DNA from: Candidatus Thorarchaeota archaeon
GTDB taxonomy: Archaea > Asgardarchaeota > Thorarchaeia > Thorarchaeales > Thorarchaeaceae
Assembly (NCBI GenBank): GCA_048882485.1
Contig: JBHLRP010000016.1
Coordinates: 18,473 to 64,347 of the forward strand
Direction: 5' to 3'
DNA length: 45,875 nt
The translations under genes and the position numbers were made by a program. The stretch's first letter is position 1. Every line of letters begins with the position of its first letter. The notes beneath the pieces are model-generated. The model did not search any database and was not told the DNA's origin. It worked only from the letters and a program-made list of their open reading frames with translations. Below, one piece after another: positions 21,699 to 38,700 of this stretch.

Positions 21699-22157
21699 AT
21701 GAAGATGAGTTCCAAAGGATCTGCGCAAGGCGAAGGAATTGTTGTAAAGGCAAGTTTGGATGATGTCAGGAAAGGCGCTGTAAGAGTGCTGACTGACTTT
21801 AGCACAACCATTGAGAAACAGGATGGCTCAAAAGTTGGAGGAGATGCTCCTATCAATGACGGGGATCAAGTCATCTTTCGAGAAAACATCGATCCATGTC
21901 CCGCTGTCATCGCAGCAACGAAATTAGGTGAGGATCTGTGGTATGTTGTAAGCTCAACAATATGTCCCAATATCAGATGTGATGACATCCAGGCCATGAA
22001 GTGCGCACGTCTTGAGGCGCAGAACCTAAAAATCTTCCAGAATGTCATTCAAGATAATGGTGAGTGGACATGGGTACATGAATGGCGAATTGACACTGCT
22101 CAGCACCCGAACGCGCAGAGGATCATTGACAAAGCCACAAAGGAATGGACCCACTAG
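21699..22157 (+). CDS. Hypothetical protein
   Basis: 152-aa ORF with GGAG RBS that fills the space between known genes; three spaced Cys near the middle. Confidence 0.7.
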   Translation: MKMSSKGSAQGEGIVVKASLDDVRKGAVRVLTDFSTTIEKQDGSKVGGDAPINDGDQVIFRENIDPCPAVIAATKLGEDLWYVVSSTICPNIRCDDIQAMKCARLEAQNLKIFQNVIQDNGEWTWVHEWRIDTAQHPNAQRIIDKATKEWTH

Positions 22158-23293
22158 AAGTCCCAGCCATGATCTCTAAGTAGATTGATTGTACGATTTA
22201 CGCGTGTCAGGTGCGCAACTATCTCAATGAGATCATCGGAGTAGTCCAACACTGGACTCAATTGACCAACAGCCGCTTTCGATAGTAGCTCGAGTCCGGC
22301 ATCAACTAGGCTTTCGGTTCCTTCACGAAGTATAATCTGAAGCTCTGACAAGCCGGCGGTTGCATTCTTCACGGCCTTCACAATTGCCAATGCAACCAAG
22401 GCGATAGTGAATATGGCATCGTCGGTGCTATTGACAGCAACATTCACTATCGAGCAAAAACTTGATTCAAGGCTAGGCTCCATGTCAGTAGCCGAGAAAT
22501 CCCTAGCGCCAATTCTGGTCAGGAGAATATTAAACTGCTCGACAGCTATTTCGATTCTCTCCAAAACTCCAGCCTTTTGAAGGATAGATCTGGTCTGAGG
22601 AGAAGTCATCCTGTTCTCAAGAATCTCAGGGTCTAGACTAAGGGTGCTCCCAGCAGAAAGAACAGTATGGGGTTCGTTCTCCAGTGGCGCAAATCCGGAT
22701 AACACTGATAGGACACCATGGCCACAGCAGTTGCAGATGATTGAGCCAAAAATCGCACGCTCAATCTGTCTGAATAGCTCAAGAACACGCTGCTCGTCGC
22801 TGACTCTTCTCATGTTCACTCTTCCGTCTTGCAGTATTGTAATGCTCATGTCCTCGATCTCGGCTCTGCCATATCCGAGGTCTCTACTGCAACGAATCAG
22901 TTCAAATCTATCAGATATACAGTCCATTAAGTCGCATAGAAGAGAGGGTTCAAACACTCCAAAATGGATAGGCTCGCCAGCTTCAACACCGTTGTATACC
23001 CGGAGCTCTGCCATGACCTTTTCATCTGTGTCTTGACATGGACGGGTAAGAAGCATTCCTCCTTCAGGCAGCTTTGCCGCAGGTTTTCCTATCAGTGTTG
23101 GTCTTCTCTTGCTTAGGAGTTCCAATTCTTCGCTACTGTCTTTGTATCTGTCTAGGACAAGAAGAGGACATTTGCCGATTTCCGTTCTGCCTACAATCAA
23201 AGCTCTTGCAAAGCTGGCGCAGGTCGCCTCCCCGCAAAGACCACAATCAATTTGAGGAGTGCTCTTCCACGTCTTGACCCATAGACTACTCAT
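22154..23293 (-). CDS. Fe-S cluster-binding protein (N-terminal CxxCx4Cx16C putative Fe-S domain)
   Basis: DCGLCGEATCASFARAL...GKCP; additional PC and CNCCG motifs. Confidence 0.8.
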   Translation of the reverse strand: MSSLWVKTWKSTPQIDCGLCGEATCASFARALIVGRTEIGKCPLLVLDRYKDSSEELELLSKRRPTLIGKPAAKLPEGGMLLTRPCQDTDEKVMAELRVYNGVEAGEPIHFGVFEPSLLCDLMDCISDRFELIRCSRDLGYGRAEIEDMSITILQDGRVNMRRVSDEQRVLELFRQIERAIFGSIICNCCGHGVLSVLSGFAPLENEPHTVLSAGSTLSLDPEILENRMTSPQTRSILQKAGVLERIEIAVEQFNILLTRIGARDFSATDMEPSLESSFCSIVNVAVNSTDDAIFTIALVALAIVKAVKNATAGLSELQIILREGTESLVDAGLELLSKAAVGQLSPVLDYSDDLIEIVAHLTRVNRTINLLRDHGWDF

Positions 23294-24051: not shown

Positions 24052-25668
24052 TCAATCAAAGAGGGGTTCAAAAAAGCCAGCAAGAACCTCTTTTTGAACT
24101 TTCAATAGCTGGCCCTTTGTCGTGCGCTCTACCAAGTCAATTCCGCTTTCTTCAGTAAGTCGAACTGCAACCAATGAGTCGCCATGATCATCCAATGCTG
24201 CTTCGAATTTAGCACCCGCTGTGGACTCTGGAACAGCAATGACTCCCATACTGATGTCACCAGATTCGATTAGTTTCTGAAGGCGCTTTGCTGAATAGAA
24301 CGCTGCAACACCTCCACTGCGATTCCAATCCTTAACGCCAGGAACATCAATTCCCACTTTCTTAGTGACACCACTCTTCGTAAGTAGCACAATCGATGTA
24401 GATTCTTTGGTCGCCTGAGTGGCATCTGCGTCTATCGCTACATCGATACCTATGGATTTCCCTGTCGCTTCTATCGCCTTGATTAGAGAGCTAATTACAA
24501 CTGTAGGTGTAAGCTTAATGACGTAGTCTGGCTGTTCCTCTACCTCAACCTCTTCTATTTCAAACAAAATTGAATCCAGTCTTGAGATGGCGTGTTTGAT
24601 TGCATCCCTTGGGACACCGTCCGAATTGGCGAATATCTCCTCTATGTCGCCTTCAGTGAAGGGGAATAATGCATCGGGAGGGGGTTCAACATTCTGTTCT
24701 ATCCAAAACTCCTTCATAGTCTTTTGAATGAACTCAGCCACATCATCCTTCTCAAAAGGCTGAAGATGAACCACCTGTTCCATCCTAGACTTCATCGGAC
24801 CATCGGCTAGTTCGTAGATGCGATCCCAAATCTCTGTTAGACTTGATGCAACAATGACGAGGTTTCGAGTTTCGTTGTAAAGTCGCTTCAGTGTTTCGAA
24901 GAACCGACGCTCAGCTTCTTCGCCATGCGTATTATATGGCCCCTCCATTTCATCAATGAATAGGAGGATAGGTAAAGTCGACCCTTCAGCAAGAAGCTTA
25001 AGGGTTGCCAGTGTAACATCATCTTCTTCTAGAACGGTTCGGACACCAAGCCTAACAATCTCGTCATTGCTTAGGGCATCACCAAACAGCCAGCGGCGAG
25101 CGAGGTCGCTATTAGCTGGATCTAGTCGATATCTCAGGAGTGTCTTCATGACATCAGCAGAGATACCGGGATAATCAACCAGCAAACGCTCCATTGCATA
25201 GGTGTAGTCATAGGTTTCATGTGAAACTCCACGCAGACCACCAAACTTCATCATCAACATATCAACAGCCTGATCGAAGATATCTTCCCCTGCTGTATCA
25301 ACTATGCATGCATGGATATGAAGAGGAATACGAATAGGAGCGGGGGGAGATGGCACGTAAACTGCTAGAAATCTCCCTCTCTTGAAGTAGTTTTCTCGGT
25401 CTTTCAAAGACCAGAAAAGGTGTGTCTTTCCCATTCCAGCACTACCCAGAATAGGCTGAAATCTGGGGATGCCATCCTGCATTGTAAAGCGAATTGCACG
25501 AAAGATTGCTCGATCAGCGCTTTCATGAGGCCCAATGATATCAATTGAATCCCGCATATCCCCGCGAGAAACATAGCGCTTCAGGGGAGGATTCTCTCTT
25601 AGAATGTCCAGGTACATTGCTTTATCAAATTCTGAAGATGCTTCTGGTGATTCAGATGGTGGTGTCAT
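24052..25668 (-). CDS. P-loop (AAA+-like) ATPase with an extra C-terminal alpha/beta domain
   Basis: Walker A GSAGMGKT, RRWLFG, Walker B LLFIDEME, SR (arginine finger-like), FPF and GVPR (sensor-like). The probable start is ATG 25668 (the track gives 25707). Confidence 0.82.
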   Translation of the reverse strand: MTPPSESPEASSEFDKAMYLDILRENPPLKRYVSRGDMRDSIDIIGPHESADRAIFRAIRFTMQDGIPRFQPILGSAGMGKTHLFWSLKDRENYFKRGRFLAVYVPSPPAPIRIPLHIHACIVDTAGEDIFDQAVDMLMMKFGGLRGVSHETYDYTYAMERLLVDYPGISADVMKTLLRYRLDPANSDLARRWLFGDALSNDEIVRLGVRTVLEEDDVTLATLKLLAEGSTLPILLFIDEMEGPYNTHGEEAERRFFETLKRLYNETRNLVIVASSLTEIWDRIYELADGPMKSRMEQVVHLQPFEKDDVAEFIQKTMKEFWIEQNVEPPPDALFPFTEGDIEEIFANSDGVPRDAIKHAISRLDSILFEIEEVEVEEQPDYVIKLTPTVVISSLIKAIEATGKSIGIDVAIDADATQATKESTSIVLLTKSGVTKKVGIDVPGVKDWNRSGGVAAFYSAKRLQKLIESGDISMGVIAVPESTAGAKFEAALDDHGDSLVAVRLTEESGIDLVERTTKGQLLKVQKEVLAGFFEPLFD

Positions 25669-25802
25669 CTCACACGGTCTCCCTAACCATGCACACATTG
25701 CTAGCATAACGATATGAATCTAACGTGGTTGATATTTGGTAGGAAGTATGCGGAAAATAGCCATGTGCGATTTCTTTAACTCGATTTCTATCTATTATTA
25801 GG

Positions 25803-26468
25803 ATGAGGAAAATGGTCTTCTCAAGGACATTAACGAGTAAGGAACTGAAGATGCTCCTACAGATGCAGGAGTTTGTGAAAAAGGCACACGCAGAAAGCGA
25901 CAGTCATGACTATTCACATGTCTTCACTGTTTGTAGATATGCCATAGAGATAGCTAAGAATATTGATGAAAAGGTCGATCCCTTTGTCTGCATCGCAGGA
26001 GCACTATTGCATGACATAGGCAAGACCAATCGTGTATTTGCACACATCCATGGACTACTTGGTGGTACTCTTGCAGAGGAGTTCCTAGATGGCCTCCAGG
26101 TTAACGAGAAACTGCGTGACACGATCGCTAGGGTAGTTGTCCGGCACACTCCTTCTTCAAATATACCGCCAGTCACTCCTGAAGAGAAGATAGTCTATGA
26201 TGCAGACACCCTAGACCGCCTTGGCCTAATGGGACTACTTCGTGGATTTATTGGCAAAGCAGGGAGTATGGAGAATATTCTGACCAAATACATGGAGAAA
26301 CGCAAACACGATTATGATAAATTGAATTTCGAATTCAGTAGAGAGCTGGGAGATAGTCTTCATCAGGAACTACTGGAGTTCCTTTTTGTTGTTGAAGATC
26401 GCCTCGGCGCGAGAATGGCTTCTATTGAGGACCTTTTTGGAAAGGAGGGCCTTGTTAGGGCTAAGTAG
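25803..26468 (+). CDS. HD-domain phosphohydrolase
   Basis: HDYSH, LLHDIGK, H, RH and VYDADTLDRLG motifs. Confidence 0.9.
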   Translation: MRKMVFSRTLTSKELKMLLQMQEFVKKAHAESDSHDYSHVFTVCRYAIEIAKNIDEKVDPFVCIAGALLHDIGKTNRVFAHIHGLLGGTLAEEFLDGLQVNEKLRDTIARVVVRHTPSSNIPPVTPEEKIVYDADTLDRLGLMGLLRGFIGKAGSMENILTKYMEKRKHDYDKLNFEFSRELGDSLHQELLEFLFVVEDRLGARMASIEDLFGKEGLVRAK

Positions 26469-26503
26469 CAAAATATTCTGGGATTAACTGAGAGAATCCG
26501 GAG

Positions 26504-27742
26504 GTGAAAAAGATGACAAGGGATTTTCAATCATTGTCCCGAGAGGAGTTGCTTGCTAGAGCCTCGAGTCATGTGTTCTCGAGTGGTCTGATGGATTCAG
26601 CGAACGCCCTCTGTGTAACGAACATGAAATATGGTCTGGCCAAAATTCATCATGCGCTTTTTCAGCTTGGCATGGATCCTGATGCCACATTTGTAGGTGC
26701 ACCAGATGCTACTGTCACACGAAATGTCAGGAGATGGAATAATGGTCTGGGCTATGGGGGAAAGCTAGCGTGGGGAGAAGGAGATAGGAGGATTATATTT
26801 CTAGACTCTATGCCTAATGCCTGTGGAATGCTCGTAGGGGGGCTCGATAGTCTTCCAAGAATTGATACGCTCATAAACAATGTCAGCTCTTTTCTAGGAG
26901 CAGAAGAAATCATAGACAACATTGCAATAGATTGGGATTTTGCCGTTAGCAATCATTTCATTGACCTTTATCGACACAAGCCGCTGGACGACGCCACCGA
27001 ATCTCCCCACAGGTATATCTTCATTATTCATGGATCTGTCCCCGAGTTGAAGGGGGATAATGACACTAAATTCGGTTTTGGATTGTATTATCATAAGAGT
27101 GCAGTTCTTACTGAAATGGCTGAAGAGATTGATACACCTTTCGGGAAGACCTGTGTAGTCAGTGATACAGCCGCTGCAGAATACTTGAAGCTGAATGATT
27201 TTGCTTGTGACCTGAGCAAAAAGAAACGGCTCCGTGCCGCCGAGGCCATTTTCGATGAGTTCACTGAAATATGCAACCCCATACACCAAGGGCTTCAAAA
27301 CATGAACCATCATCTGTTAGGCTGTCAAAATACCATGCAAGATGGGAGCTTGCTCCCTATTGCTCTTCGAGCAGATCTGCCCGCATATCTTGTGAATGGC
27401 AAACCCAACTTCGATGATGAAGCAGTTGAACATCTCGGTTTCACGAAACGTGCTGAACGATTAGGAGTGGCTCATCGACTTATGGAAGCCAATATCCTCC
27501 CGCACGGTGGAGGGTACAAATTCGATTCAATCCTTGGAATCAATCGTGTCATTGAATCAAAGGGAGGGACACGCTATTATGTCACAGACATGTCGACAGG
27601 TCATGAATCAGAGAAGGTCTTCTCTAGTCCGCGTGAACTTGAGTACAGCTATAGGGGGAGAGAGGTTGTTAGGAGAGCTGTTGACCTTCGTATGTGCGAA
27701 ATCGTGGCACGTCTGATGCCGCGTTTCATCCTCAAAATCTGA
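26504..27742 (+). CDS. Divergent RtcB-superfamily (GTP-dependent RNA ligase-like) protein
   Basis: Collinear RtcB-like motifs: APD, PNACGM, SNHFID, IIHGS, IHQG, PHGGG, SYR and terminal LMPRFILK. RBS GGAGGTG. Confidence 0.7.
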   Translation: MKKMTRDFQSLSREELLARASSHVFSSGLMDSANALCVTNMKYGLAKIHHALFQLGMDPDATFVGAPDATVTRNVRRWNNGLGYGGKLAWGEGDRRIIFLDSMPNACGMLVGGLDSLPRIDTLINNVSSFLGAEEIIDNIAIDWDFAVSNHFIDLYRHKPLDDATESPHRYIFIIHGSVPELKGDNDTKFGFGLYYHKSAVLTEMAEEIDTPFGKTCVVSDTAAAEYLKLNDFACDLSKKKRLRAAEAIFDEFTEICNPIHQGLQNMNHHLLGCQNTMQDGSLLPIALRADLPAYLVNGKPNFDDEAVEHLGFTKRAERLGVAHRLMEANILPHGGGYKFDSILGINRVIESKGGTRYYVTDMSTGHESEKVFSSPRELEYSYRGREVVRRAVDLRMCEIVARLMPRFILKI

Positions 27743-27765: not shown

Positions 27766-28017
27766 TCAGCCGCCACCAATAGGTGGAAAAATCACCACAA
27801 GATCATCTTCAGCTAATGTTTCATCAAAGTCGATGGCCCTCTCCCCGTTAATCATGACAATCTGTACATGCACTTCTCTGATACCAAGTTTCTTGATTAG
27901 ATCATTGACCGTGTTGCCCTGCATTTCGATTTGAAAGAAATCACCTAGTTCGTTATCTTCTGGTGCGAATTGCCTCAAGCCAGCATATAGCTTCACATTA
28001 ACCATCAAGAAGCTCAC
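27766..28017 (-). CDS. MoaD/ThiS/SAMP-family ubiquitin-like protein
   Basis: VNVKLYAGLR...TVNDLI..LGI...INGE...LAEDDLVVIFPPIGGG with a free C-terminal GG. Confidence 0.92.
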   Translation of the reverse strand: MSFLMVNVKLYAGLRQFAPEDNELGDFFQIEMQGNTVNDLIKKLGIREVHVQIVMINGERAIDFDETLAEDDLVVIFPPIGGG

Positions 28018-28047: not shown

Positions 28048-28311
28048 CTACTTAAGATGACCGCCGCAGAGCAACCCAAGGCCAATCGGACGTAACTCGA
28101 TACTATCACCAGATTCAACAGTATCGTTCAGCTTAGCTGGTATTCCATTGATGTAGCAATTGCCAAGTTCTATCGCGGTCAATCCTAAACTCGAGATTAC
28201 ATGACCCAAAGATTCTCCTCGTACTGATTTTCGAATTAGCACTGATTTGTGACTTTGCTGATTGCCAATGACAAGTTCCGCAAGGCAATCATGAAGATGA
28301 ATCTCTATCAT
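28048..28311 (-). CDS. Second beta-grasp ubiquitin-like protein (MoaD/Mut7-C-Ub-like), ending CGG-HLK
   Basis: IEIHLHDCL...SLGHVISSLGL...YING...VESGDSIELRP. The probable start is ATG 28311 (the track gives 28413). Confidence 0.7.
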   Translation of the reverse strand: MIEIHLHDCLAELVIGNQQSHKSVLIRKSVRGESLGHVISSLGLTAIELGNCYINGIPAKLNDTVESGDSIELRPIGLGLLCGGHLK

Positions 28312-28379
28312 TTTGAGCTCAAAGAGAATTCTCAATTGATAAGCTCTGAGATACTGGCTAATTGGAATAAGAGTCTGTA

Positions 28380-28853
28380 CTAGGAAGAGCCAACAGGAGG
28401 CGCTTCGTCCCAATCGAAATCTGACTCTTTGGGCTTTCCATTCTGCTCAGGAGCTTCCTTTGGGATATTCTCTGCATGAAACTTGAAGTTCAGATCATCT
28501 GCTGCCACGTTAGGGGGCTCCTCAGATACTTCAGATTTCACACCGGCGAGTTCCTTTATGCCGTCAATCATCTCGCTCAAATCTTCTCCTTCATCTGCAC
28601 TCAGCTCACCCGATGGAAAATCCTCGACCTCTGGCAAGCCTAGTCTATCCAACACGTATTTGATGACCCGCCTAGTAATTTCCCATCCCCGCTTTTGCAT
28701 TATGCGTTGTATCTCATCGAGGACAGCCTCATACTTCTTGCCACTATACTCTATACTCTGTAGGAAATCTTCATCTCTTATCTCTATGATACTGGAACTC
28801 ACTAATACCTCGATATTAGTCCCCGGAAGTCGCACTGCATGTAACACCTGCAA
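28380..28853 (-). CDS. Hypothetical protein with an acidic, probably disordered C-terminus
   Basis: 157-aa ORF co-oriented upstream of the Ubl pair. Confidence 0.65.
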   Translation of the reverse strand: MQVLHAVRLPGTNIEVLVSSSIIEIRDEDFLQSIEYSGKKYEAVLDEIQRIMQKRGWEITRRVIKYVLDRLGLPEVEDFPSGELSADEGEDLSEMIDGIKELAGVKSEVSEEPPNVAADDLNFKFHAENIPKEAPEQNGKPKESDFDWDEAPPVGSS

Positions 28854-29571: not shown

Positions 29572-29763
29572 TGCATTTCTCCTGGCACAAAGCTGTTTTG
29601 CGTTAAACAGGATTCACCCAAATGAATGTCTATATTGCCCCATAATAGATTCTAATAGACGAAAATAGTTTATTTTTCATTTCTTCGATGGCTTTCTGCT
29701 TGGTACATCGTCGAATGTTTGACATTGTATAAAGATAGGTGTTGGCATTAAGGGTTGGCTGGG

Positions 29764-32700
29764 ATGAAGAGAATTGCCGCTGTTGCATTGATTGTATTCT
29801 TCTTTCTCGCACCATCAATTGAGCATCAGACATTTCCAGCGCCATCAAGAGGATCGCGGGAGTCCTCAGCAGGAAATGACTCGAGCTATTTAGCTGAAGG
29901 CACAGGATCCTATGAAGGCACAGGTGAATCATTACCCGTTGATTTGAATGGGCTCTACTCCGGATATGGCACAGCCTCCTTTGATTCTTCTATGCCCGGA
30001 TACCTAACAATGAACATCCCAGAAAGCTGGACTAGTGATCACCTGACCACAAGTATAGATGACCTGTCAAGGTGGGTCGATAGCGTTCTGATTAATCCAA
30101 GGCTTGATACATATCACAACGAAAGATGGCTTTTCACAGGTTCTGATTCTCAGTTCAACGGAGATAACTTCAAAGTGCCTGATGGATGGACACTGGAGAA
30201 GTCAGATCCGACAACTGGTTCCCAGCATCCTCTTCAGGGTATTTTCGATCTTTACGGAAGCCTTGGAGCAGGATATGATAATACAATTGGGTGGGAGTTC
30301 GCGGGCAATTACGCAGGCACAACACCTCTTGAACCAACAAATGAAGTCTACTTGAGTCAACAGGTATTGGCACCTTGGAGAGAATTATACTCAGCTGAAA
30401 TCAACTTCCTCTATTATGTACGTAGCCTGTCGGATATGGACAACGGCGTCCATCTCTTTGCAAGATTTGGGGATTTCGTGACCAAGCTTGAAGTTTTTGA
30501 CACTGGAGACGCTGTAGACACATGGATTGAGGCTCAGGTCACCGTGCCAAAGTCCTATCTTCAGACTCTAGCTGTACCTAATTCAGTGCTATTCGATATA
30601 GGACTTGGGACTGACATAAGCGGTCAACCCGGAATCGGAGGCAACCATGCAGCGTATATAGATGAGATTGAGCTCAAACTCAATGTCAGACCATTCCCTG
30701 AACAGATTAACTTGAAGGCCAATGGGGCTTCAGTAAAGGGTTCAACTGCAGGTTCAATTTCCACTTATGTTCCAGATGGTGCCAATAGAGACTGCTACAG
30801 CAATGTGAGCTCAGGAATAGATCTCAACGGTCCTAGCGATAATGGTGTTTTGAATATGGGAGCAAACGCCCCGGCATTTCCTGACTGGAGCACAGCCTAT
30901 TCATACCAGGTGGGGCTTCAGTTTCCTTTAGATGCCCCACAAGGCAGTGCGATTACTTCAGCGTACCTGGAAGTGGAGGCTGAAACTGGCGCTCAATATC
31001 TGACAGACACTTTTGATGGTAGAATGCGGATACTTGTTGCAGACGAGAACACAGTCACTGCGTTCACCACTGGATTGCCCGAACTCGCTGATCGCTACAA
31101 TTGGGTCGATACTGACATTGTATGGACTCCTAGTGACTGGACTGCAGGCACCAGATATACATCTCCAAATATTGCTCCAATTCTGCAAAAGGTTGTGTCT
31201 AGAGCTGATTGGCAGAGCGGTAACTATGTCTGTATCATGCTTGAATACGCACACTCAACAAATGACTTGTCCTGGAACAACATTAAAGGTTCTAGCAATT
31301 ATCCTCAAGCTGATCTTTCTAGACTATTCGTGGACTATCTGACTCCAGAGCCGGAGGACATTGTATATAGCTTTGAAAAGAGCAAGACCATAAGCGTTGA
31401 CCATCTGAAGGTGGCTGGCAACCTTTACGATTTCCCGGTTCTGGTTGATATTTGGGATGCGGACTTGCATACTGATGTTCAACCAGATGGGGACGACATC
31501 GGGTTCATGATCGGTCATGAAACTCTTGATCATGAGATTGTGATTTTTGATCGTACCGGAGATGGGACGCGTGCGCATCTGGTAGCATGGGTACGTGTTC
31601 CATTTCTTTCATCAACTAGAAACACCGACATTGTGATGCTCTACGGAAACAGGTATGTTGGAAATCAAGAAACAGTAGAGGGAGTGTGGGATGATGACTT
31701 CGTTGGAGTATGGCACCTAGAGGAGGATCCCGCCGGTACCAACTTCGACAGCACATCATTCGCCAATGACGGAACTGGGGAGCCTCCAGGCAATGAACCA
31801 GGCTATATCATAGGGAGAATTGGCATGTCAGCAGAGTTCTATGGTGCGACGCTACGTCGAGTTGAAGTTCCCCATGACAACAGCCTGGCAATACCAGGTA
31901 GTCTAACAGTTGACACTTGGATACGTACAAATAATACAGACGGCTCCTCAGATGCCATCCTTGCGAAATGGAATGAAGTGGGCAATAGAAACTACTGGCT
32001 CGGAAAATTGGATGCCAGTACCCTAGCGTTCTTCGTGGATGATACGCAGTCAGTGAGTACATCGTATAGTCTAGTTAATGATGGGGGTTGGCATCACGTG
32101 GTGGGTGTCGCTGATGCCACCAAGCAGAATCTGTACCTGTTTGTTGATGGTGCCTTACGAAACACTGCTGCCTATACTGGTTCAATGCAGGTTGGTGATT
32201 CAGTCCTGCATATAGGCAATAATCCAGGTTCAATTGGTCTTGATCAAGAATGGGATGGTCTAATTGATGAGGCGAGGGTATCCAAAAACGTTCGGACTTC
32301 TGAATGGGTCCTGACAAGCTACAGAAACCAAATCAGCCCCCTTGCCTTCTACAGTGTAGGTCAGGAGAGTCAAATAGCATGGTTCGATTCAGACTGGAGT
32401 TATCGAAAAGTAGCCACAGTTTCTGCTGATACATCTGATATCCCTGCAGGATATTCAATCTATCTGACATTTGATCATGCAACGCTAGTAAGTGAAGGAA
32501 AATCCTTGGCAAATGGAGATGACATTCGTATAGTGTACTGGGATGGATCCCAATGGATTGAGCTCGACAGGATGCTGGACACAGACTCGACTTGGAATAG
32601 TGATTCGACCAAGATATGGTTTAAGACACAAACATCAATTCCAGCCTCTTCTTCAGATTCGGGCTACTATCTTTATTATGGTAATCCTTTGCCTAGCTCT

Positions 32701-35700
32701 CCTCCAAGTGATAGCTCTCGTGTGTTCACCTTCTATGATGGGTTTGAGAGCGGCAATCTTGATGGTTGGAATGGTTCGAGTACTGATACAGGTGATACAT
32801 TGATGGTTCTGAATACGCCACTCATACCAGTCCATTCCGGAACCTATGCAGTCAGAGCGGATGTAGATAACCAGGCAGCCGCTCAAGGGATGGTCTGGTG
32901 GGATTTCAGTGACTCAATGAATCTATTTGCTCGGGTCCACTTCTACCTACCAGTGGGATTCTCTACCACCGATCATGTAACCATAATGCAGTATATTGAC
33001 ACTTCGACTGGCTGGCAGAATCAGATTAGTGTGACAATAAAGGATGACATGACGCTGTACATGTGGAATGCAATCGCCGCTGAAGCTTATGGCTACATGG
33101 CTACTAATACTATTTCTACAGGATCTTGGCATATGTTAGAGATGCAGGCTCGAATCTCTGACACCAATGGCGAGGCGAGATTGTGGTTGGATGGAAATCT
33201 CGAGATTGAGGAAACAGGGAGAAATCTCGGAACCGAGGGTATTGATAGATTCTGCACGGTATTCTATTGGGCGTCTCCGCAGACGGAACCTAATACGGTT
33301 TATGCAGACGATGCCTTCCTCAGGCCATTTCTGAGCCCTGAACCAAGTGTATTCCTTGGTCCTGAATTAACACAGGCAATTCAATTCAATTTCAAGAAAG
33401 ACATAGTCGTTGACCACACAAAGGTCAATTCGGACTTGGTAGACTTCCCTCTTCTGATTGATATCTATGATACTGACCTAAAAACTGATACTGAAGTTGA
33501 TGGTGATGACATCTTATTTCTGAAGGATGGCTGGATTCTTCCTCATGAGATTGAGCTCTTCGACCAGCAACACAATTCTACTCATGCCCACCTTGTCGCT
33601 TGGGTCAAGACTGATCTCTCATCCTCCAGGGATACTGTAGTTTCAATGTATTATGGAAACCCATCGATGCAGAATCTTCAGAATCCTTCCAGTGTATGGA
33701 GCAATTCATACGGTGGAGTGTGGCATTTGAATGATAATCCGACAGGGATGATTTATGATTCTACTTCTAATGACAATAATGGTACTTCCTCAGGCGGCAT
33801 GACTTCAGACGACCAAATACCTGGACAAATCGACGGTTCTTTAGATTTTGATGGATCTGATGATGAAGTGAATCTTCCCCGAGCAGTCATTGGCGACCGT
33901 GCAGCCTGGACAATCTCAGCCTGGATCAAAATGGGTGCTGATACTGCAGACCAGAGAACGATTTACAGTGAGGGGAATACTGGCGTAACAGAATATCTCT
34001 TTCTGTATGTAGATGACACCAATTCAGAGGTGAGGTTCTATTCGACAACAGCTATTGGCGATTATACTCAAGTAATTGGCTCGACAAATGTTGAGGACAA
34101 CCAATGGCACTTTGTCACGTTTGTCCAACGGTCGAAGACTGACCGAGAGCTGTATGTCGATGGCTTATCCGAAGGAACCAGTATACAAGATACAGGAACC
34201 TTCGCCACTGATACAGCCAATATTGGAGTTCTGATTTCTGATTGGGTCGCAGATTGGTTCAATGGTACGATTGATGAGGTCCGTATTTCATATTCAGCAC
34301 GTTCCGCGGACTGGATTACAACTGAATTCAATAATCAATATAACATAGCCAGTTTCTTCTCCATTGGAAGTGAGATACCTCTTCTTGAAAAAGTGGGAGA
34401 GTTTCTATACCAGAAAGAGATCATAATAGACCACACAAAGGTCGATGCAGACCTGACGGACTTCCCATTGTTGGTCAACATATATGATACCGATCTCAAG
34501 ACTGACATCCAAGCTGATGGAAACGATATCGTGTTTGCGAAGAATGGCGTGATTCTCCCACACGAGATTGAGCTATTTGATCAGTCATACAACTCCACTC
34601 ATACTCATCTAGTCGCTTGGGTCAAGACGAATATTTCTTCAACAATTGACACAAAATTGTCCATGCTTTACGGTAATCCAACCTACAAGAACAGCGAGAA
34701 TCCAGAAGGTGTTTGGACATCAGACTATAGAGGAGTCTGGCACCTTAGCGATGATCCAGCTAATCCTGCACCTCAGATTAAGGACAGTACGTCTTACCAC
34801 ATCGATGGTACAAAATATGGAGGTTTATCGACCAGCAGTCAAATCGAAGGACAAATAGATGGAAGTTTAGACTTCAATGCTTCGACTAACGATTACATTG
34901 ACTGCGGAGATCAATCTGAATTAAATATGGGAACAGGAGATTTCAGTCTCTCTTTGTGGTTCAGATTCGATGGCGCAAATAACGGTCCACTAGCAGGAAA
35001 GGGTGCCTACGGCGGCGGTGGGAAACGTTACTTCATTGCACTTGAAAACGACCGTGTGAAAGGAGAGATAGATGATAATGGCGCCTCAGGCAAGAAATCC
35101 ATATCGTCCTTTGCATTGATGGATGATAACTTATGGCATCAAGTTGTAATGATTAGGAGCGGCAACAGTCTTAGACTCTTCATTGATGGCAACGAGGATC
35201 TAAACTCTCCGATAGACATCACAGGCTATGGCAATATAGACCAGGTGATGCCATTTACAATCAATACTCTTTCTAGTGACCCAGTTGTGCCAACCTTCAC
35301 TGATTGGGCGGGTGTCGAACTTGATGAGATTAGGGTTGTGTCATCTGCCCGCTCTGCAAGCTGGATTCTATCGGAATACAATAATCTGAAAGAGCCGTCT
35401 TCTTTCCTTGCTGTTGGAAGTAAAAGACTCCTTCAACCAGGAGGATTCGAGAATCAAAAGATAATAACTGTGGACAGCACCAAAGTGCTTTCAAATCTAA
35501 ATGACTACCCACTCCTTTTGGACTTATACGACAGAGACCTCCGTACTGATGTCCAGAATGACGGCGATGACATTGCATTCAAAATTGGAAAAACTGTATT
35601 AGACTATGAGATTGAGGTCTTTGATCAAACATGGAATAGCACACATGCACATCTTATCGCATGGGTGAGAGTGCCATTTCTTTCGTCTGCTGTTGATACT

Positions 35701-38700
35701 GAGATTACCATGTTATACGGCAATCCCGATATCGGGAAGCAGGAGAATCCAAATGGGGTTTGGGACAATCGTTACGCAGGTGTATGGCACCTCTCCGAGT
35801 CTTCCGGAGATGCACTTGACTCGACATCATATGCAACTCAAGGGACTCCCACAGGTGGAGTAGCGCAGGGGATATCAGGATACATTGGCCAGGCCTATGA
35901 CTTCAACGGCATAGATGGAACAGTAGACTTTGGCGACCCATCAGATGGCCACCTAGATTTTGGAACATCTAGCTTCTCGTACAGCATTTGGGTGAGAGTC
36001 GACTCAAATACAGGCACATGGCAACTACCATTCTCAAAGGGAGGAGCTACTTCAACAGACACTGGCTATGAAATTGAAACTACCAGCGATGGGACTTCAA
36101 TGAATTCATGGGTGAGTGATGGATCCATTGCCCGGGTCACTACTTTGACTCCTATCACATTCGGTGAGTGGGTGTATCTTGTTGCAGTCGTCAATAGGGA
36201 AACAAACAGAGTCCTCCTCTTCAGAGATGGAATTGAAACTGGCTCTGGCCAGTCGTTGACTAGCTTTGGAAGTCTCAGTACCACTCAATCACTTTACATC
36301 TCAAGACCCACATATGAGCTAGATGGGGTGGTTGATGAGGCGAGGATAGCTCTTAAGCCACTTGACCCCAACTGGATTTACACTGAATATCTAAATCAGA
36401 AAGACCCTTCATCGTTCTATAGTGTGGGAGAGGAGTCAGGGGCAGCCAAGAACGAAGTGACTGTTGGTTTTACGACAAACTCAGAATCAGGTGTGTCGCT
36501 TTCTACGTCAATGATTCTCACTGTAGGGAGTACTATCCAGAGCCTAGCAAACAACCTCTCGCCGGGAACAAGCTTCTCAGTCATAAATGGCACTCTACCC
36601 ATATGGACAGCTAATATCTTGGTTACTGCTCCAGTTGGTGTGGATCACCTCGGTTTCAACATCAATTATCCAACAGGGGCATGGAAGCCGATATCGGTCA
36701 TCAATCCAGAGGGGATTCACAAGACAGAAGGTATAGATTGGACTAAGACAGGAGAAGGACTCATAGTCAGGCCTTATGCTGTGGACTCGCAAGGCATCTG
36801 GAAGATTCAGTTTGAGGATAGAAATCATGTCATGGATCTTGAAATGGGGCTCTCTGCAGGCGGCTTTGCTTCCACAGCCACATTCGAGGTTGGAGATATA
36901 ATTCGGTTTAGGAATCAGGCACCTTCATTGACAGGATCATTGGTATCTATCGATTTAATAGACCCTTCTGGAGCTGTTTGGTATTCGACAGATCCAGTGT
37001 ATCAAGGATTGTCTTTCTCTCTTCCATTCTCCAAGAGAAAGTCGCTAGTGATTGATCACAACAAAGTCGCATCCGACCTCGAGAACTTCCCTGTCCTGCT
37101 TGAGCTCTATGACACAGACCTTCATACTGGCGTGAGGGCGGATGGAGCGGACATCGCGTTCGCAGCTGGAAACCTTGCTTTGGACCATGAGATTGAGTTG
37201 TTTGACCAGAACTATAATGGCACACATGCGCGGCTAGTCAGCTGGGTGGAAGTGCCCAATCTATCAGCCACAGCTGACACCACCATAACGATGTATTACG
37301 GGAATCCATATGCACCAAGCCGCGAGAATCCATCAGGTGTCTGGGATTCAGATTTCGTAGGAGTATGGCACTTGGGGGAGTCAGGGACTGGGCTGGTTGA
37401 CGAGTATATTGACAGCAGCATATATGACAATCACGGTCAGGGCGGTTTCGGGAATTCAACCTATGTCCCGACAAGAACCACAGCCGCTATTGGGTATGGA
37501 CAAGACTTCACAAATCATTTCATCGACTGCGGGAATGATACAAGTTTGGATGCATTTGGCCACCAAATCACACTGCAGCTATGGATGCAGTTTCCAGCAA
37601 CGCATCCTACAATGGGTCCCATCAATCACAAAGGATGGTATGATGGATATCGATTGCTTATGTGGCCTAACAGTCAAAACGTGAAGTTCCACTTGCATGG
37701 GGATGACTATGACCTAGAAACCTCTCAAACAATTACTCCTAGCTCATGGCATCATGTGACTGCAGTTTATGATGGCGAGTACATGAGAATCTACTTGGAT
37801 GGGGACCCAGACCCAGCTGTGATGGCAAAGACGGATGATATATTGTCAGCTTTGCCATATCCATTCAGAATCGGCCACGGAGACCACCCAGAGGCCAAGT
37901 CGTGGACTTATCCATGGATTGGACAAATCGATGAGGTACGAATTTCAAATGTGGCCCGATCCAGTAGCTGGATCTGGACTGAATACCAGAATCAGGCTGA
38001 CCCACAGAGCTTCTTCAATGTAGGTAGCGAACAGCCTCTTGGCTTCTACTCCTCACCGAACATCAACCTTGATTCATCAGCTAGTGAAGGCGTTTGGACG
38101 GTCCAGGCAAACTACTGGGACAACAATGGGCTAGTGAGAGAGAAGGTCGGGAGCCTGAGTAGAAGTTTCATTGTGACTCACGATGCCTCTCTTAGCCTTG
38201 AAGCTCCAACAGATGCAATCTCAGACCATACTGCCGCAAGAGAGGTAGGTGAGGAGGTTTACATCGAGGTTGAACTCACAGACACGGTTACAGCAAGTCT
38301 TGTTGGTGGAGCAACTGTCACAATGAACTGGACAGTTCTAGGAACGCCGACGGTGGTCATGCTAAACGACCTCGGTGGCGGCCGGTACGGGAAGGCATTG
38401 AATACCTCTGATCTGGGTGAGGCAAGAAGATGGAGAGTCGAGCTCAACTCATATCACCCATACTACTCTAACGCGACTGAATATCTTGACATCGACATCT
38501 CCCATCGGAGCTATCTTACTGTAGTGCCACCTGATCCAATTCCATACAGTGATGATTTCATCGTTAAGGTGACACTTCGTGACGCCTTCGATAATTCACT
38601 AATCAGCGGTGCATCCATCACCTCAAACGGAACATTTGCTGCAGCACCTGTTGACTATGGGAACGGGACATATCTTGTAACAATCGATGGCGCAGGCTAT

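What the first reader, a model, noticed from the sequence alone, without database searches (positions are those of the whole stretch)
25803..27742. HD phosphohydrolase plus a highly divergent RtcB-like ligase: candidate new RNA end-healing/sealing module
Seen: the two genes are 35 bp apart. The 412-aa protein retains, in order, equivalents of RtcB PD, C (CG), NH (NHF), H (HS/HG), H(N), the guanylylated His (HGxG) and the terminal Lys. However, the DxxC Asp is replaced (PNAC), HN is HQ, and the protein is shorter than canonical archaeal RtcB. Known: RtcB joins 2',3'-cyclic or 3'-phosphate ends to 5'-OH via His-GMP and can cap 3'-phosphates; HD domains hydrolyse nucleotide phosphoesters. Inference: a non-housekeeping RtcB paralogue for RNA repair, capping or nucleotide signalling, paired with an end-processing or eraser enzyme.
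Basis: partly seen in the sequence, partly recalled or inferred. Interest (0 to 1): 0.72.

Follow-up and report, generated by a model that had tools for sequence, protein, structure and literature searches.

The report
Divergent RtcB-like enzyme with HD partner
This Asgard archaeon has, besides its normal RNA-joining enzyme RtcB, a second very distant relative that no annotation library recognises; it keeps most of RtcB's catalytic centre, often sits beside a phosphate-cutting HD enzyme, and has an unknown target.

Summary
Two co-oriented genes lie at 25803-26468 (HD hydrolase) and 26504-27742 (412 aa; the likelier start is ATG 26513, giving 409 aa).

- **Not annotated.** The larger protein matches nothing in Pfam, NCBIfam, PADLOC, PHROGs or PDB sequences.
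- **RtcB relative.** A family-wide profile aligns to RtcB at 98% probability (E 1.4e-13).
- **Catalytic centre.** RtcB's bridging Cys, three metal His, NHF Asn, nucleophile His (PHGGG) and C-terminal Lys have counterparts. The M2 Asp ligand and the 5'-OH-strand Arg238 do not.
- **Accessory gene.** The genome has a canonical RtcB elsewhere. The family occurs in 19 of 61 sampled Asgard genomes, against 59 of 61 for RtcB.
- **Wide spread.** It occurs in anaerobic archaea and bacteria (232 genome hits).
- **HD partner.** An HD gene is directly adjacent on the same strand in 30 of 81 loci, in both gene orders.

An RNA substrate is not shown. Archease or RtcB lies nearby in 3 of 81 loci. Against that stand two fusions to an APH-type kinase, amino-acid-metabolism neighbours, and no classical RNA-repair partner.

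Most likely this is an NTP-dependent histidine-nucleotidylating enzyme that activates a phosphomonoester. RNA and non-RNA substrates are about equally likely.

The scan had noted this family before on other DNA.

The parts
25708..25802 (+). Intergenic region between the divergent 551-aa ATPase gene and the HD gene; presumed promoter region of the HD/RtcB-like pair
   Evidence: AT-rich stretch read. One sigma-70-like match at 25729-25758, no more than shuffles give and not relevant to an archaeon. No function was tested.
25803..26468 (+). HD-domain phosphohydrolase, 221 aa (218 aa if it starts at ATG 25812), of the standalone YedJ/YpgQ-like kind, with the extended H..HD..H..H..D motif
   Evidence: PF01966 E 7.9e-13, 49.2 bits. 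Nearest solved sequences are 2pq7 (E 3.7e-10), 5dqv = B. subtilis YpgQ (9.2e-10) and 3gw7 = E. coli YedJ (2.6e-8). Invariant H35 H39 H70 D71 H83 H115 D133 D135 in 33 partner sequences.
26469..26512 (+). Short spacer with a Shine-Dalgarno-like GGAGGTG (26500-26506) 6 nt before ATG 26513
   Evidence: Sequence read. Spacers between HD and the RtcB-like gene in the other loci run from -4 to 110 nt in 28 of 30 adjacent pairs.
26504..27742 (+). Divergent RtcB-superfamily protein (412 aa from GTG 26504; more likely 409 aa from ATG 26513). Proposed catalytic residues: D68, C107, N150, H151, F152, D154, H176, H261, H334 (nucleophile), Y383, K411
   Evidence: No library hit. hhalign to RtcB 94-98%. H151, H176, H261 and H334 are invariant and C107, N150 and F152 are kept in at least 52 of 55 divergent family members.

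Best explanation
**The pair.** The 409/412-aa protein belongs to an unannotated, deeply divergent branch of the RtcB superfamily. It is an accessory paralogue that works alongside the genome's canonical tRNA ligase RtcB, not instead of it.

**What the sequence shows.**
- It keeps RtcB's M1 metal site: Cys107, His176, His261.
- It keeps half of the M2 site: Cys107 and His151.
- It keeps the NHF asparagine, Asn150.
- It keeps the histidine that RtcB guanylylates, His334 in PHGGG.
- It keeps counterparts of the two guanine-reading residues: Asp154 for Glu206 and Lys411 for Lys480.

**Inferred mechanism.**
1. With Mn2+ or a similar metal, the enzyme takes a purine NTP (probably GTP) and forms a covalent His334-NMP.
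2. It passes the NMP to a phosphomonoester, giving X-p-p-N.
3. It either stops there (capping) or lets a hydroxyl attack, making a phosphodiester and releasing NMP.

**Departures from RtcB.** The M2 aspartate and the Arg238 contact to the 5'-OH RNA strand are gone. The phosphate-bearing substrate is therefore not the tRNA-exon pair.

**Substrate.** I put roughly even odds on two options: an unusual polynucleotide end, or a non-polynucleotide phospho-substrate (a small metabolite or a protein).

**HD partner (inferred).** It has a complete H..HD..H..H..D site. It either produces the phosphomonoester or removes the X-pp-N / nucleotide by-products. The two genes behave as a loosely linked two-gene module. 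None of the chemistry has been tested.
For: **Homology to RtcB.**
- hhalign gives 98.1% (E 1.4e-13, 291 columns) against bacterial RtcBs, 97.8% against 36 mixed RtcBs and 94.1% against 29 Asgard RtcBs. Controls give 0.2-0.3%.
- The ESM Atlas feature search places RtcB-bearing clusters among the nearest (score 0.94, 210 of 256 features).
- PF01139 is the only Pfam family hit by more than one of 55 members (4 of 55, best E 0.018).

**Conservation of the catalytic residues.** H151, H176, H261 and H334 are kept in 55 of 55 members; C107 and N150 in 52 of 55; F152 in 53 of 55. Residue roles come from passages of PMC9745838 and PMC8051266.

**Accessory status.**
- A canonical RtcB lies elsewhere in the genome.
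- The family is in 19 of 61 Asgard genomes against 59 of 61 for RtcB, and every carrier also has an RtcB match.
- All 5 carriers among 81 Spirochaetota have RtcB.

**HD linkage.**
- HD is adjacent on the same strand in 30 of 81 loci, and in 28 of the 71 loci with at least 800 nt on both flanks. It is upstream in 18 and downstream in 12.
- The high-scoring HD subtype was found only in genomes that carry the RtcB-like gene: 3 of 19 against 0 of 42.
- HD subtype B tracks one clade of the RtcB-like tree. That clade includes a bacterium and a Helarchaeote that share Metallophos-HD-RtcB-like.

**Archease.**
- It is adjacent in 3 of 81 loci from two lineages.
- It is present in 10 of 13 carrier bacterial genomes.
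- In the Spirochaetota sample it is in 4 of 5 carriers against 16 of 76 non-carriers.
Against: **No structure or biochemistry.**
- The RtcB family model itself does not recognise the protein.
- A profile of close relatives alone aligns only weakly to RtcB: 34% and 1.4%.

**Active-site doubts.**
- The missing M2 Asp could mean the NTP chemistry is altered or lost.
- The Glu206 counterpart varies across the wide family: N14, D11, G10, E6 of 55. Nucleotide choice is therefore uncertain.

**HD linkage is incomplete.**
- HD is absent from the neighbourhood in 47 of 81 loci.
- The dedicated subtype is missing from 16 of 19 Asgard carrier genomes.

**Archease linkage is weak.**
- Co-occurrence is confounded with RtcB. 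Restricted to RtcB-positive Spirochaetota it is 4 of 5 against 16 of 49. By my own hand arithmetic, one-sided Fisher p is about 0.06, or about 0.012 unconditioned. The genomes are related to each other.

**Uncertain residue mapping.** The mapping of Arg190 and Gln194 comes from the low-confidence extension of the alignment.
Confidence: 0.6

Rival explanations
1. **Specialised RNA (or DNA) end repair or capping module.** The RtcB-like enzyme seals or caps 3'-phosphate / 2',3'-cyclic-phosphate polynucleotide ends of a particular damaged RNA. The HD enzyme heals the ends or removes NppG caps.
For: - I know of no characterised RtcB-family enzyme that acts on anything but polynucleotide ends. This is a recalled statement, supported in part by passages of PMC8051266 and PMC9745838.
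- In L048 (Spirochaetota) the pair is convergent with archease and a canonical RtcB. In L053 and L055 (Bathyarchaeia) archease is the next gene, and in L055 RtcB lies 3 kb away.
- Planctomycetota loci place PolX and an NTPase downstream.
- Three loci add a calcineurin-type phosphoesterase, the enzyme class that heals ends in bacterial Pnkp (the Pnkp comparison is recalled).
- Basic residues are conserved: R77, K183 (K/R in 49 of 55), R242 and R384.
Against: - Arg238, the 5'-OH-strand clamp, aligns to Pro180. Position 180 is P in 18 of 25 close relatives and R in 3 of 25.
- No RtcA, Pnkp, Hen1, Ro or PrfH appeared among the 25 commonest of the 102 families matched by 86 operon-like neighbours.
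- There is no PADLOC hit.
- The kinase fusions are of the APH small-molecule type, not P-loop polynucleotide kinases.
- Archease or RtcB proximity is seen in only 3 of 81 loci.
Confidence: 0.3
2. **RtcB chemistry moved off nucleic acids.** The enzyme nucleotidylates a small phospho-metabolite or a phospho-protein. It then forms an NDP-linked compound or a phosphodiester. A kinase supplies the phosphate and the HD enzyme trims phosphate or nucleotide by-products.
For: - Two independent sequences (P0138, 743 aa; P0271, 745 aa; 64% identical in the kinase part) fuse an intact PF01636 APH/choline-kinase-like domain to the RtcB-like domain.
- Ddl-type ATP-grasp is the commonest non-HD operon neighbour: 6 of 86 proteins, in Desulfobacteria, Atribacterota, Spirochaetales, Planctomycetota and others.
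- Other same-strand neighbours include a lysine-2,3-aminomutase-like radical SAM enzyme, an Asp/Glu racemase, class IV and class I/II aminotransferases, spermidine synthase, DAO, and 7TM-transglutaminase with ATPgrasp_ST.
- The HD partner's nearest characterised relative, YpgQ, acts on free nucleotides.
- RNA-strand contacts are lost.
- GMP-activated phosphodiester synthesis has precedents in cofactor pathways such as CobU/CobS and CofC/CofD (recalled, not checked here).
Against: - The fusions are rare (2 clusters) and lie in a subfamily only 33-38% identical to the window protein.
- The metabolic neighbours differ from lineage to lineage and could be incidental. None is conserved in the Asgard clade of the window, apart from an aminotransferase in 2 Thorarchaeota loci.
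- I know of no precedent for an RtcB-fold enzyme acting on a non-polynucleotide (recalled).
Confidence: 0.3
3. **The protein uses the conserved Cys/His metal site for other chemistry**, for example hydrolysis, with no covalent His-NMP intermediate. Alternatively it is a non-catalytic relic.
For: The M2 Asp ligand that contacts the GTP beta/gamma phosphates in RtcB is missing. The family model does not recognise the protein.
Against: - The nucleophile His and its P-H-G-x-G context are kept in 55 of 55 members. The NHF motif and the C-terminal basic residue (K28, R12 of 55) are kept in most of them. That would be hard to explain without nucleotidyl transfer.
- 45-53% identity between archaeal and bacterial members argues for a working enzyme.
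Confidence: 0.08
4. **It is a redundant or back-up tRNA-splicing ligase.**
For: RtcB homology. It always co-occurs with canonical RtcB.
Against: - It is present in only 19 of 61 Asgard genomes and 5 of 81 Spirochaetota.
- The strand-binding Arg is lost.
- It is far more divergent from RtcB than the known paralogues I fetched. The RtcB2-PrfH types still score with the RtcB model, whereas this protein does not.
Confidence: 0.02

Closest known systems
RtcB 3'-phosphate/5'-OH RNA ligase (Pfam PF01139; P. horikoshii and E. coli enzymes)
   Same: Homologous by profile-profile alignment over about 290 columns. It has the same order of motifs, the same bridging Cys, three metal His, NHF Asn, nucleophile His in a HGxG loop, an acidic residue at the Glu206 position and a penultimate Lys.
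   Different: - Not recognised by the family HMM.
- The M2 Asp95 has no counterpart.
- Asn330 becomes Gln, Arg238 becomes Pro, and the Arg after HGAG becomes Tyr338.
- There is a family-specific insert, T-x-T-R-N-x-x-R-W, between PD and GYGG.
- It is accessory and patchy rather than near-universal in archaea.
- It has a dedicated HD neighbour.
Accessory RtcB paralogues with a dedicated partner (for example RtcB2-PrfH, which repairs colicin-E3-cut 16S rRNA; abstracts of PMC9223846 and PMC13166195 seen in the listing)
   Same: A second RtcB-type gene, in addition to or apart from the housekeeping one, tied to one small partner gene. I saw the RtcB-prfH arrangement myself in two plasmid loci.
   Different: Those paralogues are ordinary PF01139 members and their partner is a release-factor homologue. 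Here the partner is an HD hydrolase and the enzyme lies outside the family model.
Standalone HD hydrolases of the YedJ/YpgQ kind (PDB 3gw7, 5dqv, 2pq7)
   Same: The HD partner is about 210-220 aa and single-domain, with H..HD..H..H..D, and these are its best solved-sequence matches. YpgQ is a Mn-dependent (d)NTP diphosphatase (passages of PMC8177086).
   Different: Only distant: 47 bits against the 286-bit cut-off of the YedJ equivalog model. The partner subtype is 43-52% conserved across domains and co-located with the RtcB-like gene. Its substrate is unknown.
Heal-and-seal RNA repair pairs (Pnkp/Hen1, RtcA/RtcB); recalled, not examined here
   Same: A phosphoesterase next to a ligase-type enzyme. 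Three loci add a calcineurin-type phosphoesterase.
   Different: No polynucleotide kinase, methyltransferase or cyclase was seen, and no RtcR-type regulator.

Membership tests
RtcB (PF01139) | Scores above the family HMM's gathering threshold | tested here: not met
   No PF01139 hit even at E <= 0.1. The whole-genome search with PF01139 returns only the canonical gene on contig 6. Of 55 family members, 4 give weak hits, best E 0.018. My own RtcB HMM finds none of the 81 family members at E <= 1e-5.
RtcB superfamily (homology) | Significant profile-profile similarity over most of the length | tested here: met
   hhalign gives 98.1%/E 1.4e-13 over 291 columns, 97.8%/E 9e-13 and 94.1%/E 1.2e-7. 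Negative controls give 0.2-0.3%.
RtcB | M1 ligands Cys98, His234, His329 (PhoRtcB numbering, PMC9745838) | tested here: met
   They align to C107 (52 of 55), H176 (55 of 55) and H261 (55 of 55).
RtcB | M2 ligands Asp95, Cys98, His203 | tested here: not met
   His203 aligns to H151 (55 of 55) and the Cys is kept. Asp95 falls in a gap or opposite Met/Pro. The family has P-N-x-C-G, with N105 in 48 of 55 and D in 3 of 55.
RtcB | Nucleophile His404 in the HGAG loop | tested here: met
   P333-H334-G335-x-G337 is kept: H in 55 of 55, P in 55 of 55. Covalent nucleotidylation itself was not testable.
RtcB | Guanine-specific contacts Glu206 and Lys480 | tested here: inconclusive
   D154 is in 25 of 25 close relatives but varies in the wide family (N14, D11, G10, E6 of 55). 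K411 is in 25 of 25 close relatives and is K or R in 40 of 55.
RtcB | 5'-OH strand contacts Arg238, Arg190, Gln194 (PMC8051266) | tested here: not met
   Arg238 aligns to P180 (P18, R3 of 25). Arg190 and Gln194 align to D138 and I142, but only in the low-confidence extension. A K/R at 183 (49 of 55) might compensate.
RtcB | RtcB fold | not testable with these tools
The Atlas holds no model. There is no PDB sequence match.
RtcB | GTP/Mn-dependent joining of 3'-P and 5'-OH RNA ends | not testable with these tools
   This needs biochemistry.
HD domain (PF01966) | Family HMM above cut-off and H..HD..D metal motif | tested here: met
   49.2 bits against a cut-off of 22. H39, H70-D71, H83, H115 and D135 are invariant in 33 partner sequences.
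YedJ equivalog (NF007515) | Score above the equivalog cut-off | tested here: not met
   47.1 bits against a cut-off of 286. It is a distant relative only.

The most novel reading that the evidence does not exclude
This family carries RtcB's histidine-NMP / phosphate-activation chemistry outside nucleic-acid repair. A kinase, fused in some members, phosphorylates a small molecule or a protein. The RtcB-like enzyme converts that phosphomonoester into an NDP-linked compound or a phosphodiester. The HD enzyme trims the phosphate or nucleotide by-product. This would make a previously unseen route to phosphodiester-linked metabolites or modifications in anaerobic archaea and bacteria.
Probability: 0.3. 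Interest if true: 0.85.

Novelty: new variant of a known kind. Interest (0 to 1): 0.66.

Why it matters
As far as I recall, RtcB is the only known enzyme type that joins a 3'-phosphate to a 5'-OH through a histidine-GMP intermediate, and every studied member works on RNA or DNA ends.

Here there is a second, unannotated branch of that superfamily:
- at least 793 homologues and 237 clusters at 50% identity;
- 232 hits in species genomes;
- 45-53% identity between archaea and bacteria.

This branch has a remodelled second metal site, has lost a strand-binding residue, and has its own HD partner.

Finding its substrate would either define a new RNA/DNA repair or capping pathway common in sediment anaerobes, including Asgard archaea, or show that RtcB chemistry is used on non-nucleic-acid substrates. 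Either result is directly testable with recombinant protein.

In the papers I could search I found no description of the family. The most relevant survey, Burroughs and Aravind 2016, is not held, so prior mention there cannot be excluded.

Tried and rejected
**Searches that gave nothing for the 412-aa protein.**
- Pfam, NCBIfam, PADLOC and PHROGs gave no hit.
- PDB by sequence gave nothing. PDB by the A1 profile gave only chance-level rows, best E 0.18.
- A search for fused forms of 722-2060 aa through the word index found none. This is weak evidence, and the 743-745-aa kinase fusions were found by other routes.

**Profile depth.** A profile of close relatives only (A1) against RtcB gave 34% and 1.4%. 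Only the family-wide profile (A2) detects the relationship.

Rejected as a conserved unit.
- The ATPase cluster lies next to the pair only in the window and its three nearest relatives (L031-L033).
- The first Ubl cluster is present only in the window, L031 and L032.

**Defence-system reading.** No PADLOC support.

**Expression.** No RNA holder was listed.

**RNA elements.** No tRNA or Rfam family anywhere in the window.

**Promoter and terminator scan.** Nothing beyond what shuffles give.

**Literature.**
- Four searches found no description of the family.
- From PMC7824862 I read passages only. It mentions RtcB-like ligases in general.
- Burroughs and Aravind 2016 (NAR 44:8525) is not held. 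I recall it as the main survey of RtcB neighbourhoods but could not check it.
- Supplements were not consulted.

**Rows I dropped.**
- L029 from the RtcB alignment, because of an in-frame TGA.
- L038 from the HD alignment A3, because the ORF is truncated to 164 aa. It still counts among the 34 HD hits.

**Method caveat.** Neighbour genes were called by my own crude ORF picker (longest ORFs, less than 30% overlap), not by a gene finder.
Full report
**What is there.** Two co-oriented ORFs occupy 25803-26468 (221 aa) and 26504-27742 (412 aa), 35 bp apart.
- The GTG at 26504 sits inside a GGAGGTG (26500-26506), 6 nt upstream of ATG 26513.
- The 95%-identical homologue P0001 has 409 aa and starts at that Met, as does the Atlas record. 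The real protein is therefore probably 409 aa.
- The first ORF is an HD-domain protein: PF01966, E 7.9e-13, 49.2 bits against a cut-off of 22.
- The second ORF matches nothing in Pfam or NCBIfam at E <= 0.1, and nothing in PADLOC or PHROGs.
- It has no PDB chain match by sequence. With a profile of close relatives only chance-level rows appear, best E 0.18.

**The family.** The 412-aa protein is not an orphan.
- The word-index search scored 793 proteins at E <= 0.001 among 8000 candidates. The 120 listed either carry no name or are called 'hypothetical protein'.
- Named sources include Thor-, Sif-, Hod- and Promethearchaeota, Bathyarchaeia, Methanocellales, Halobacteriota and Desulfobacteraceae.
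- The exhaustive search of 50%-identity representatives found 237 clusters at E <= 0.001, 175 at <= 1e-10 and 86 at <= 1e-30.
- A scan of species genomes found 254 pattern matches, of which 232 encode a relative. The best 80 were fetched.
- Those 80 come from Asgard lineages (Thor, Hermod, Hel, Heimdall, Odin, Jord), Bathyarchaeia, Methanocellales, Halobacteriota and a Korarchaeote. They also come from Spirochaetota, Desulfobacterales, Anaerolineae, Planctomycetota, Atribacterota, Clostridia, Actinomycetes, Aerophobetes and others. Nearly all are metagenome-assembled and two are single-cell genomes.
- Bacterial members are 44-53% identical to the window protein. That is strong conservation for an unnamed protein.

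**Is it RtcB-like?** Yes, by profile comparison.

*Invariant residues.* In a 55-sequence alignment that reaches down to about 23% identity (A2):
- invariant columns are G85, H151, H176, H261, G273, P333 and H334;
- near-invariant columns are D68, G81, C107, G108, N150, F152, G214, R242, G335 and G337.

*RtcB sequences used.* I took canonical RtcBs from 29 Asgard genomes (L029 dropped for an in-frame TGA). I added 7 further RtcBs from plasmid records: 6 bacterial and 1 haloarchaeal.

*hhalign of A2 against RtcB sets:*

| Target | Probability | E-value |
|---|---|---|
| 29 Asgard RtcBs | 94.1% | 1.2e-7 |
| All 36 RtcBs | 97.8% | 9e-13 |
| 6 bacterial RtcBs (291 aligned columns) | 98.1% | 1.4e-13 |
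| HD alignment, negative controls | 0.2-0.3% | n/a |

*Other pointers.*
- The profile of close relatives alone is nearly blind to RtcB, at 34% and 1.4%. This explains why no library sees the family.
- PF01139 is the only Pfam family hit by more than one of the 55 members (4 of 55, best E 0.018).
- The protein-language-model search also puts RtcB-bearing clusters nearby.

**Active site, residue by residue.** Residue roles come from passages of two PhoRtcB structure papers (PMC9745838; PMC8051266):
- M1 is held by Cys98, His234 and His329.
- M2 is held by Asp95, Cys98 and His203.
- His404 attacks the GTP alpha-phosphate.
- Asn202 contacts the alpha-beta bridge and the 5'-OH.
- Asn330 contacts the gamma-phosphate.
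- Glu206 and Lys480 read guanine.
- Arg238, Arg190 and Gln194 hold the 5'-OH strand.

The alignments and column counts give this mapping:

| PhoRtcB residue | Window protein | Conservation |
|---|---|---|
| Cys98 | C107 | 52 of 55 |
| His203 | H151 | 55 of 55 |
| His234 | H176 | 55 of 55 |
| His329 | H261 | 55 of 55 |
| His404 | H334 | 55 of 55 |
| Asn202 | N150 | 52 of 55 |
| Glu206 | D154 | 25 of 25 close relatives; variable in the wide set |
| Lys480 | K411 | 25 of 25 close relatives; K or R in 40 of 55 |
| Asp95 | none (family motif P-N-x-C-G) | n/a |
| Asn330 | Q262 | n/a |
| Arg238 | P180 | P in 18 of 25, R in 3 of 25 |
| Arg after HGAG | Y338 | n/a |

- Arg190 and Gln194 map to D138 and I142. 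This comes only from the low-confidence extension of the alignment.
- Overall the nucleotidyl-histidine machinery and one metal site are intact. The second metal site is remodelled, and the known strand clamp is not kept.
- This agrees with what two earlier follow-up notes of this scan said about the same family on other DNA. I reached it from my own alignments.

**Housekeeping or accessory?** Accessory.
- The same genome has a canonical RtcB on contig 6: 591.6 bits in a 483-aa frame.
- In 61 sampled Asgard genomes RtcB was found in 59, but the new family in 19. Among high-quality genomes it was found in 15 of 27.
- Every one of the 19 carriers also has an RtcB match. In two of them the match is partial.
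- In 81 sampled Spirochaetota the family is in 5, all of which have RtcB. RtcB overall is in 54 of 81.

**The HD partner.** I called ORFs in the 80 loci plus the window and clustered them.
- One cluster, which contains the window's HD protein, occurs in 34 of 81 loci.
- It is directly adjacent on the same strand in 30 of 81, and in 28 of the 71 loci with at least 800 nt on both flanks.
- It lies upstream in 18 loci and downstream in 12. Spacers run from -4 to 110 nt in 28 of the 30 pairs.
- Adjacent pairs occur in Asgard, Bathyarchaeia, Spirochaetota, Desulfobacterales, Anaerolineae, Planctomycetota, Clostridia, Aerophobetes and Deferrimicrobium.
- The partner has invariant H35, H39, H70, D71, H83, H115, D133 and D135. 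This is the extended H..HD..H..H..D pattern.
- Its nearest solved relatives are 2pq7, YpgQ (5dqv) and YedJ (3gw7). YpgQ is a Mn-dependent (d)NTP diphosphatase (PMC8177086, passages).

There are two partner subtypes.
- Subtype A is 43-85% identical to the window's HD. It is spread over several clades on both sides of the midpoint root of the RtcB-like tree.
- Subtype B is 20-27% identical. In four of its five loci it tracks one clade of that tree.
- That clade includes a bacterium (L075) and a Helarchaeote (L100) which share the order calcineurin-type phosphoesterase - HD - RtcB-like.

The link is not obligatory.
- In the Asgard sample the dedicated subtype (>= 275 bits) is in 3 genomes, all of them carriers. 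That leaves 16 of 19 carriers without it. None of the 42 non-carriers has it.

**Other neighbours.** No other neighbour is general.
- I collected 86 same-strand neighbours within 150 nt steps, excluding HD. The commonest Pfam families among them were Ddl-type ATP-grasp (6), TetR (6), DksA/TraR zinc finger (6) and ETF (4). The TetR and zinc-finger genes are all in related Planctomycetota.
- The tool lists the 25 commonest of 102 families. RtcA, Pnkp, Hen1, Ro and PrfH were not among them.
- Single-lineage contexts include:
  - PolX plus NTPase downstream in Planctomycetota;
  - lysine-aminomutase-like radical SAM plus ATP-grasp in Spirochaetales;
  - spermidine synthase, Asp/Glu racemase and two aminotransferases in Atribacterota;
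  - 7TM-transglutaminase plus ATPgrasp_ST in Planctomycetota;
  - an aminotransferase or DAO in Thorarchaeota.
- The window's own flanks are a 551-aa ATPase and two ubiquitin-like genes. They recur only in its nearest relatives.

**Links to the RtcB system.**
- Archease (PF01951) is the next gene in 3 of 81 loci: L048 (Spirochaetota) and L053 and L055 (Bathyarchaeia).
- In L048 the order is RtcB-like > HD > < archease < canonical RtcB. In L055 RtcB lies about 3 kb away.
- Archease is present in 10 of 13 carrier bacterial genomes that I checked.
- In the Spirochaetota sample it is in 4 of 5 carriers against 16 of 76 non-carriers.
- By my own hand arithmetic this gives a one-sided Fisher p of about 0.012. 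Within RtcB-positive genomes (4 of 5 against 16 of 49) it is about 0.06. The genomes are related to each other, so this is only suggestive.

**Links away from RNA.**
- P0138 (743 aa) carries an N-terminal PF01636 APH/choline-kinase-type domain (E 3.2e-20). Its HxDxxxxN and DWD motifs are visible in the sequence, and a complete RtcB-like domain follows.
- P0271 (745 aa, from another source, 64% identical in the kinase part) has the same architecture. Its C-terminal domain aligns to the window protein at E 9e-79.
- A kinase of this type supplies phosphomonoesters on small molecules or proteins. That is what RtcB-type chemistry would need as a substrate.

**Reading.**
- *Shown:* RtcB homology with the catalytic His/Cys core kept; accessory status; a recurrent HD neighbour.
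- *Inferred:* self-nucleotidylation on His334; activation of a phosphomonoester; a supporting phosphohydrolase role for the HD enzyme.
- *Open:* the substrate. The prior from every known RtcB, the archease/RtcB proximity and the phosphoesterase partners favour a polynucleotide end. The lost strand clamp, the kinase fusions, the metabolic neighbours and the lack of any classical RNA-repair partner favour something else. I hold the two at about even odds.

**Novelty.** This is a new variant of a known kind: a separate, unannotated branch of the RtcB superfamily with a remodelled metal site and its own partner.
- My four literature searches found no description of it.
- The key survey, Burroughs and Aravind 2016, could not be read.
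- The scan itself had flagged the same family on other genomes, and two follow-up notes reached a similar verdict.

Noticed in passing
window 29755-45873 (+), runs off the end: A giant open frame of more than 5373 aa. In its first 5000 aa Pfam finds Laminin_G_3/ConA-like lectin domains (5 stretches, E 9e-91), DUF2341 (3 stretches) and a polysaccharide-lyase-like stretch. It is probably a giant surface or adhesin-type protein of this Asgard archaeon.
   Followed up: partly
window 27766-28017 (-) and 28048-28413 (-): Two tandem small ubiquitin-like genes (ThiS / Mut7-C ubiquitin folds, E 1.9e-9 and 6.6e-7) lie convergent with the RtcB-like gene. A 157-aa acidic protein with no family follows them. 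They are conserved only in the closest relatives L031 and L032.
   Followed up: partly
window 24052-25707 (-): A 551-aa protein divergent from the HD gene. It has only sub-threshold matches to the archaeal ATPase_2 / STAND / NACHT P-loop families (best E 1.8e-5, below cut-off) and no PADLOC hit.
   Followed up: no
proteins P0138 and P0271 (metagenomic, not in the window): Fusions of an APH/choline-kinase-type kinase domain to the RtcB-like domain (743 and 745 aa), from two sources.
   Followed up: partly
L048:4215-7995 (Spirochaetota contig): The RtcB-like gene and its HD partner lie tail-to-tail with an archease - canonical RtcB operon, all within 3.8 kb.
   Followed up: yes
L075:2748-6315 (Deferrimicrobium) and L100:5759-9194 (Helarchaeota): The same three-gene order, calcineurin-type phosphoesterase (537-553 aa) - HD subtype B - RtcB-like, occurs in a bacterium and an Asgard archaeon. 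Their RtcB-like proteins are sisters in the tree, which suggests transfer of the whole module.
   Followed up: partly
window 22154-23293 (-): A 379-aa protein whose first 42 residues match the PF04060 'putative Fe-S cluster' domain, as found in the CODH/ACS gamma subunit and RnfB. The rest matches no family.
   Followed up: no
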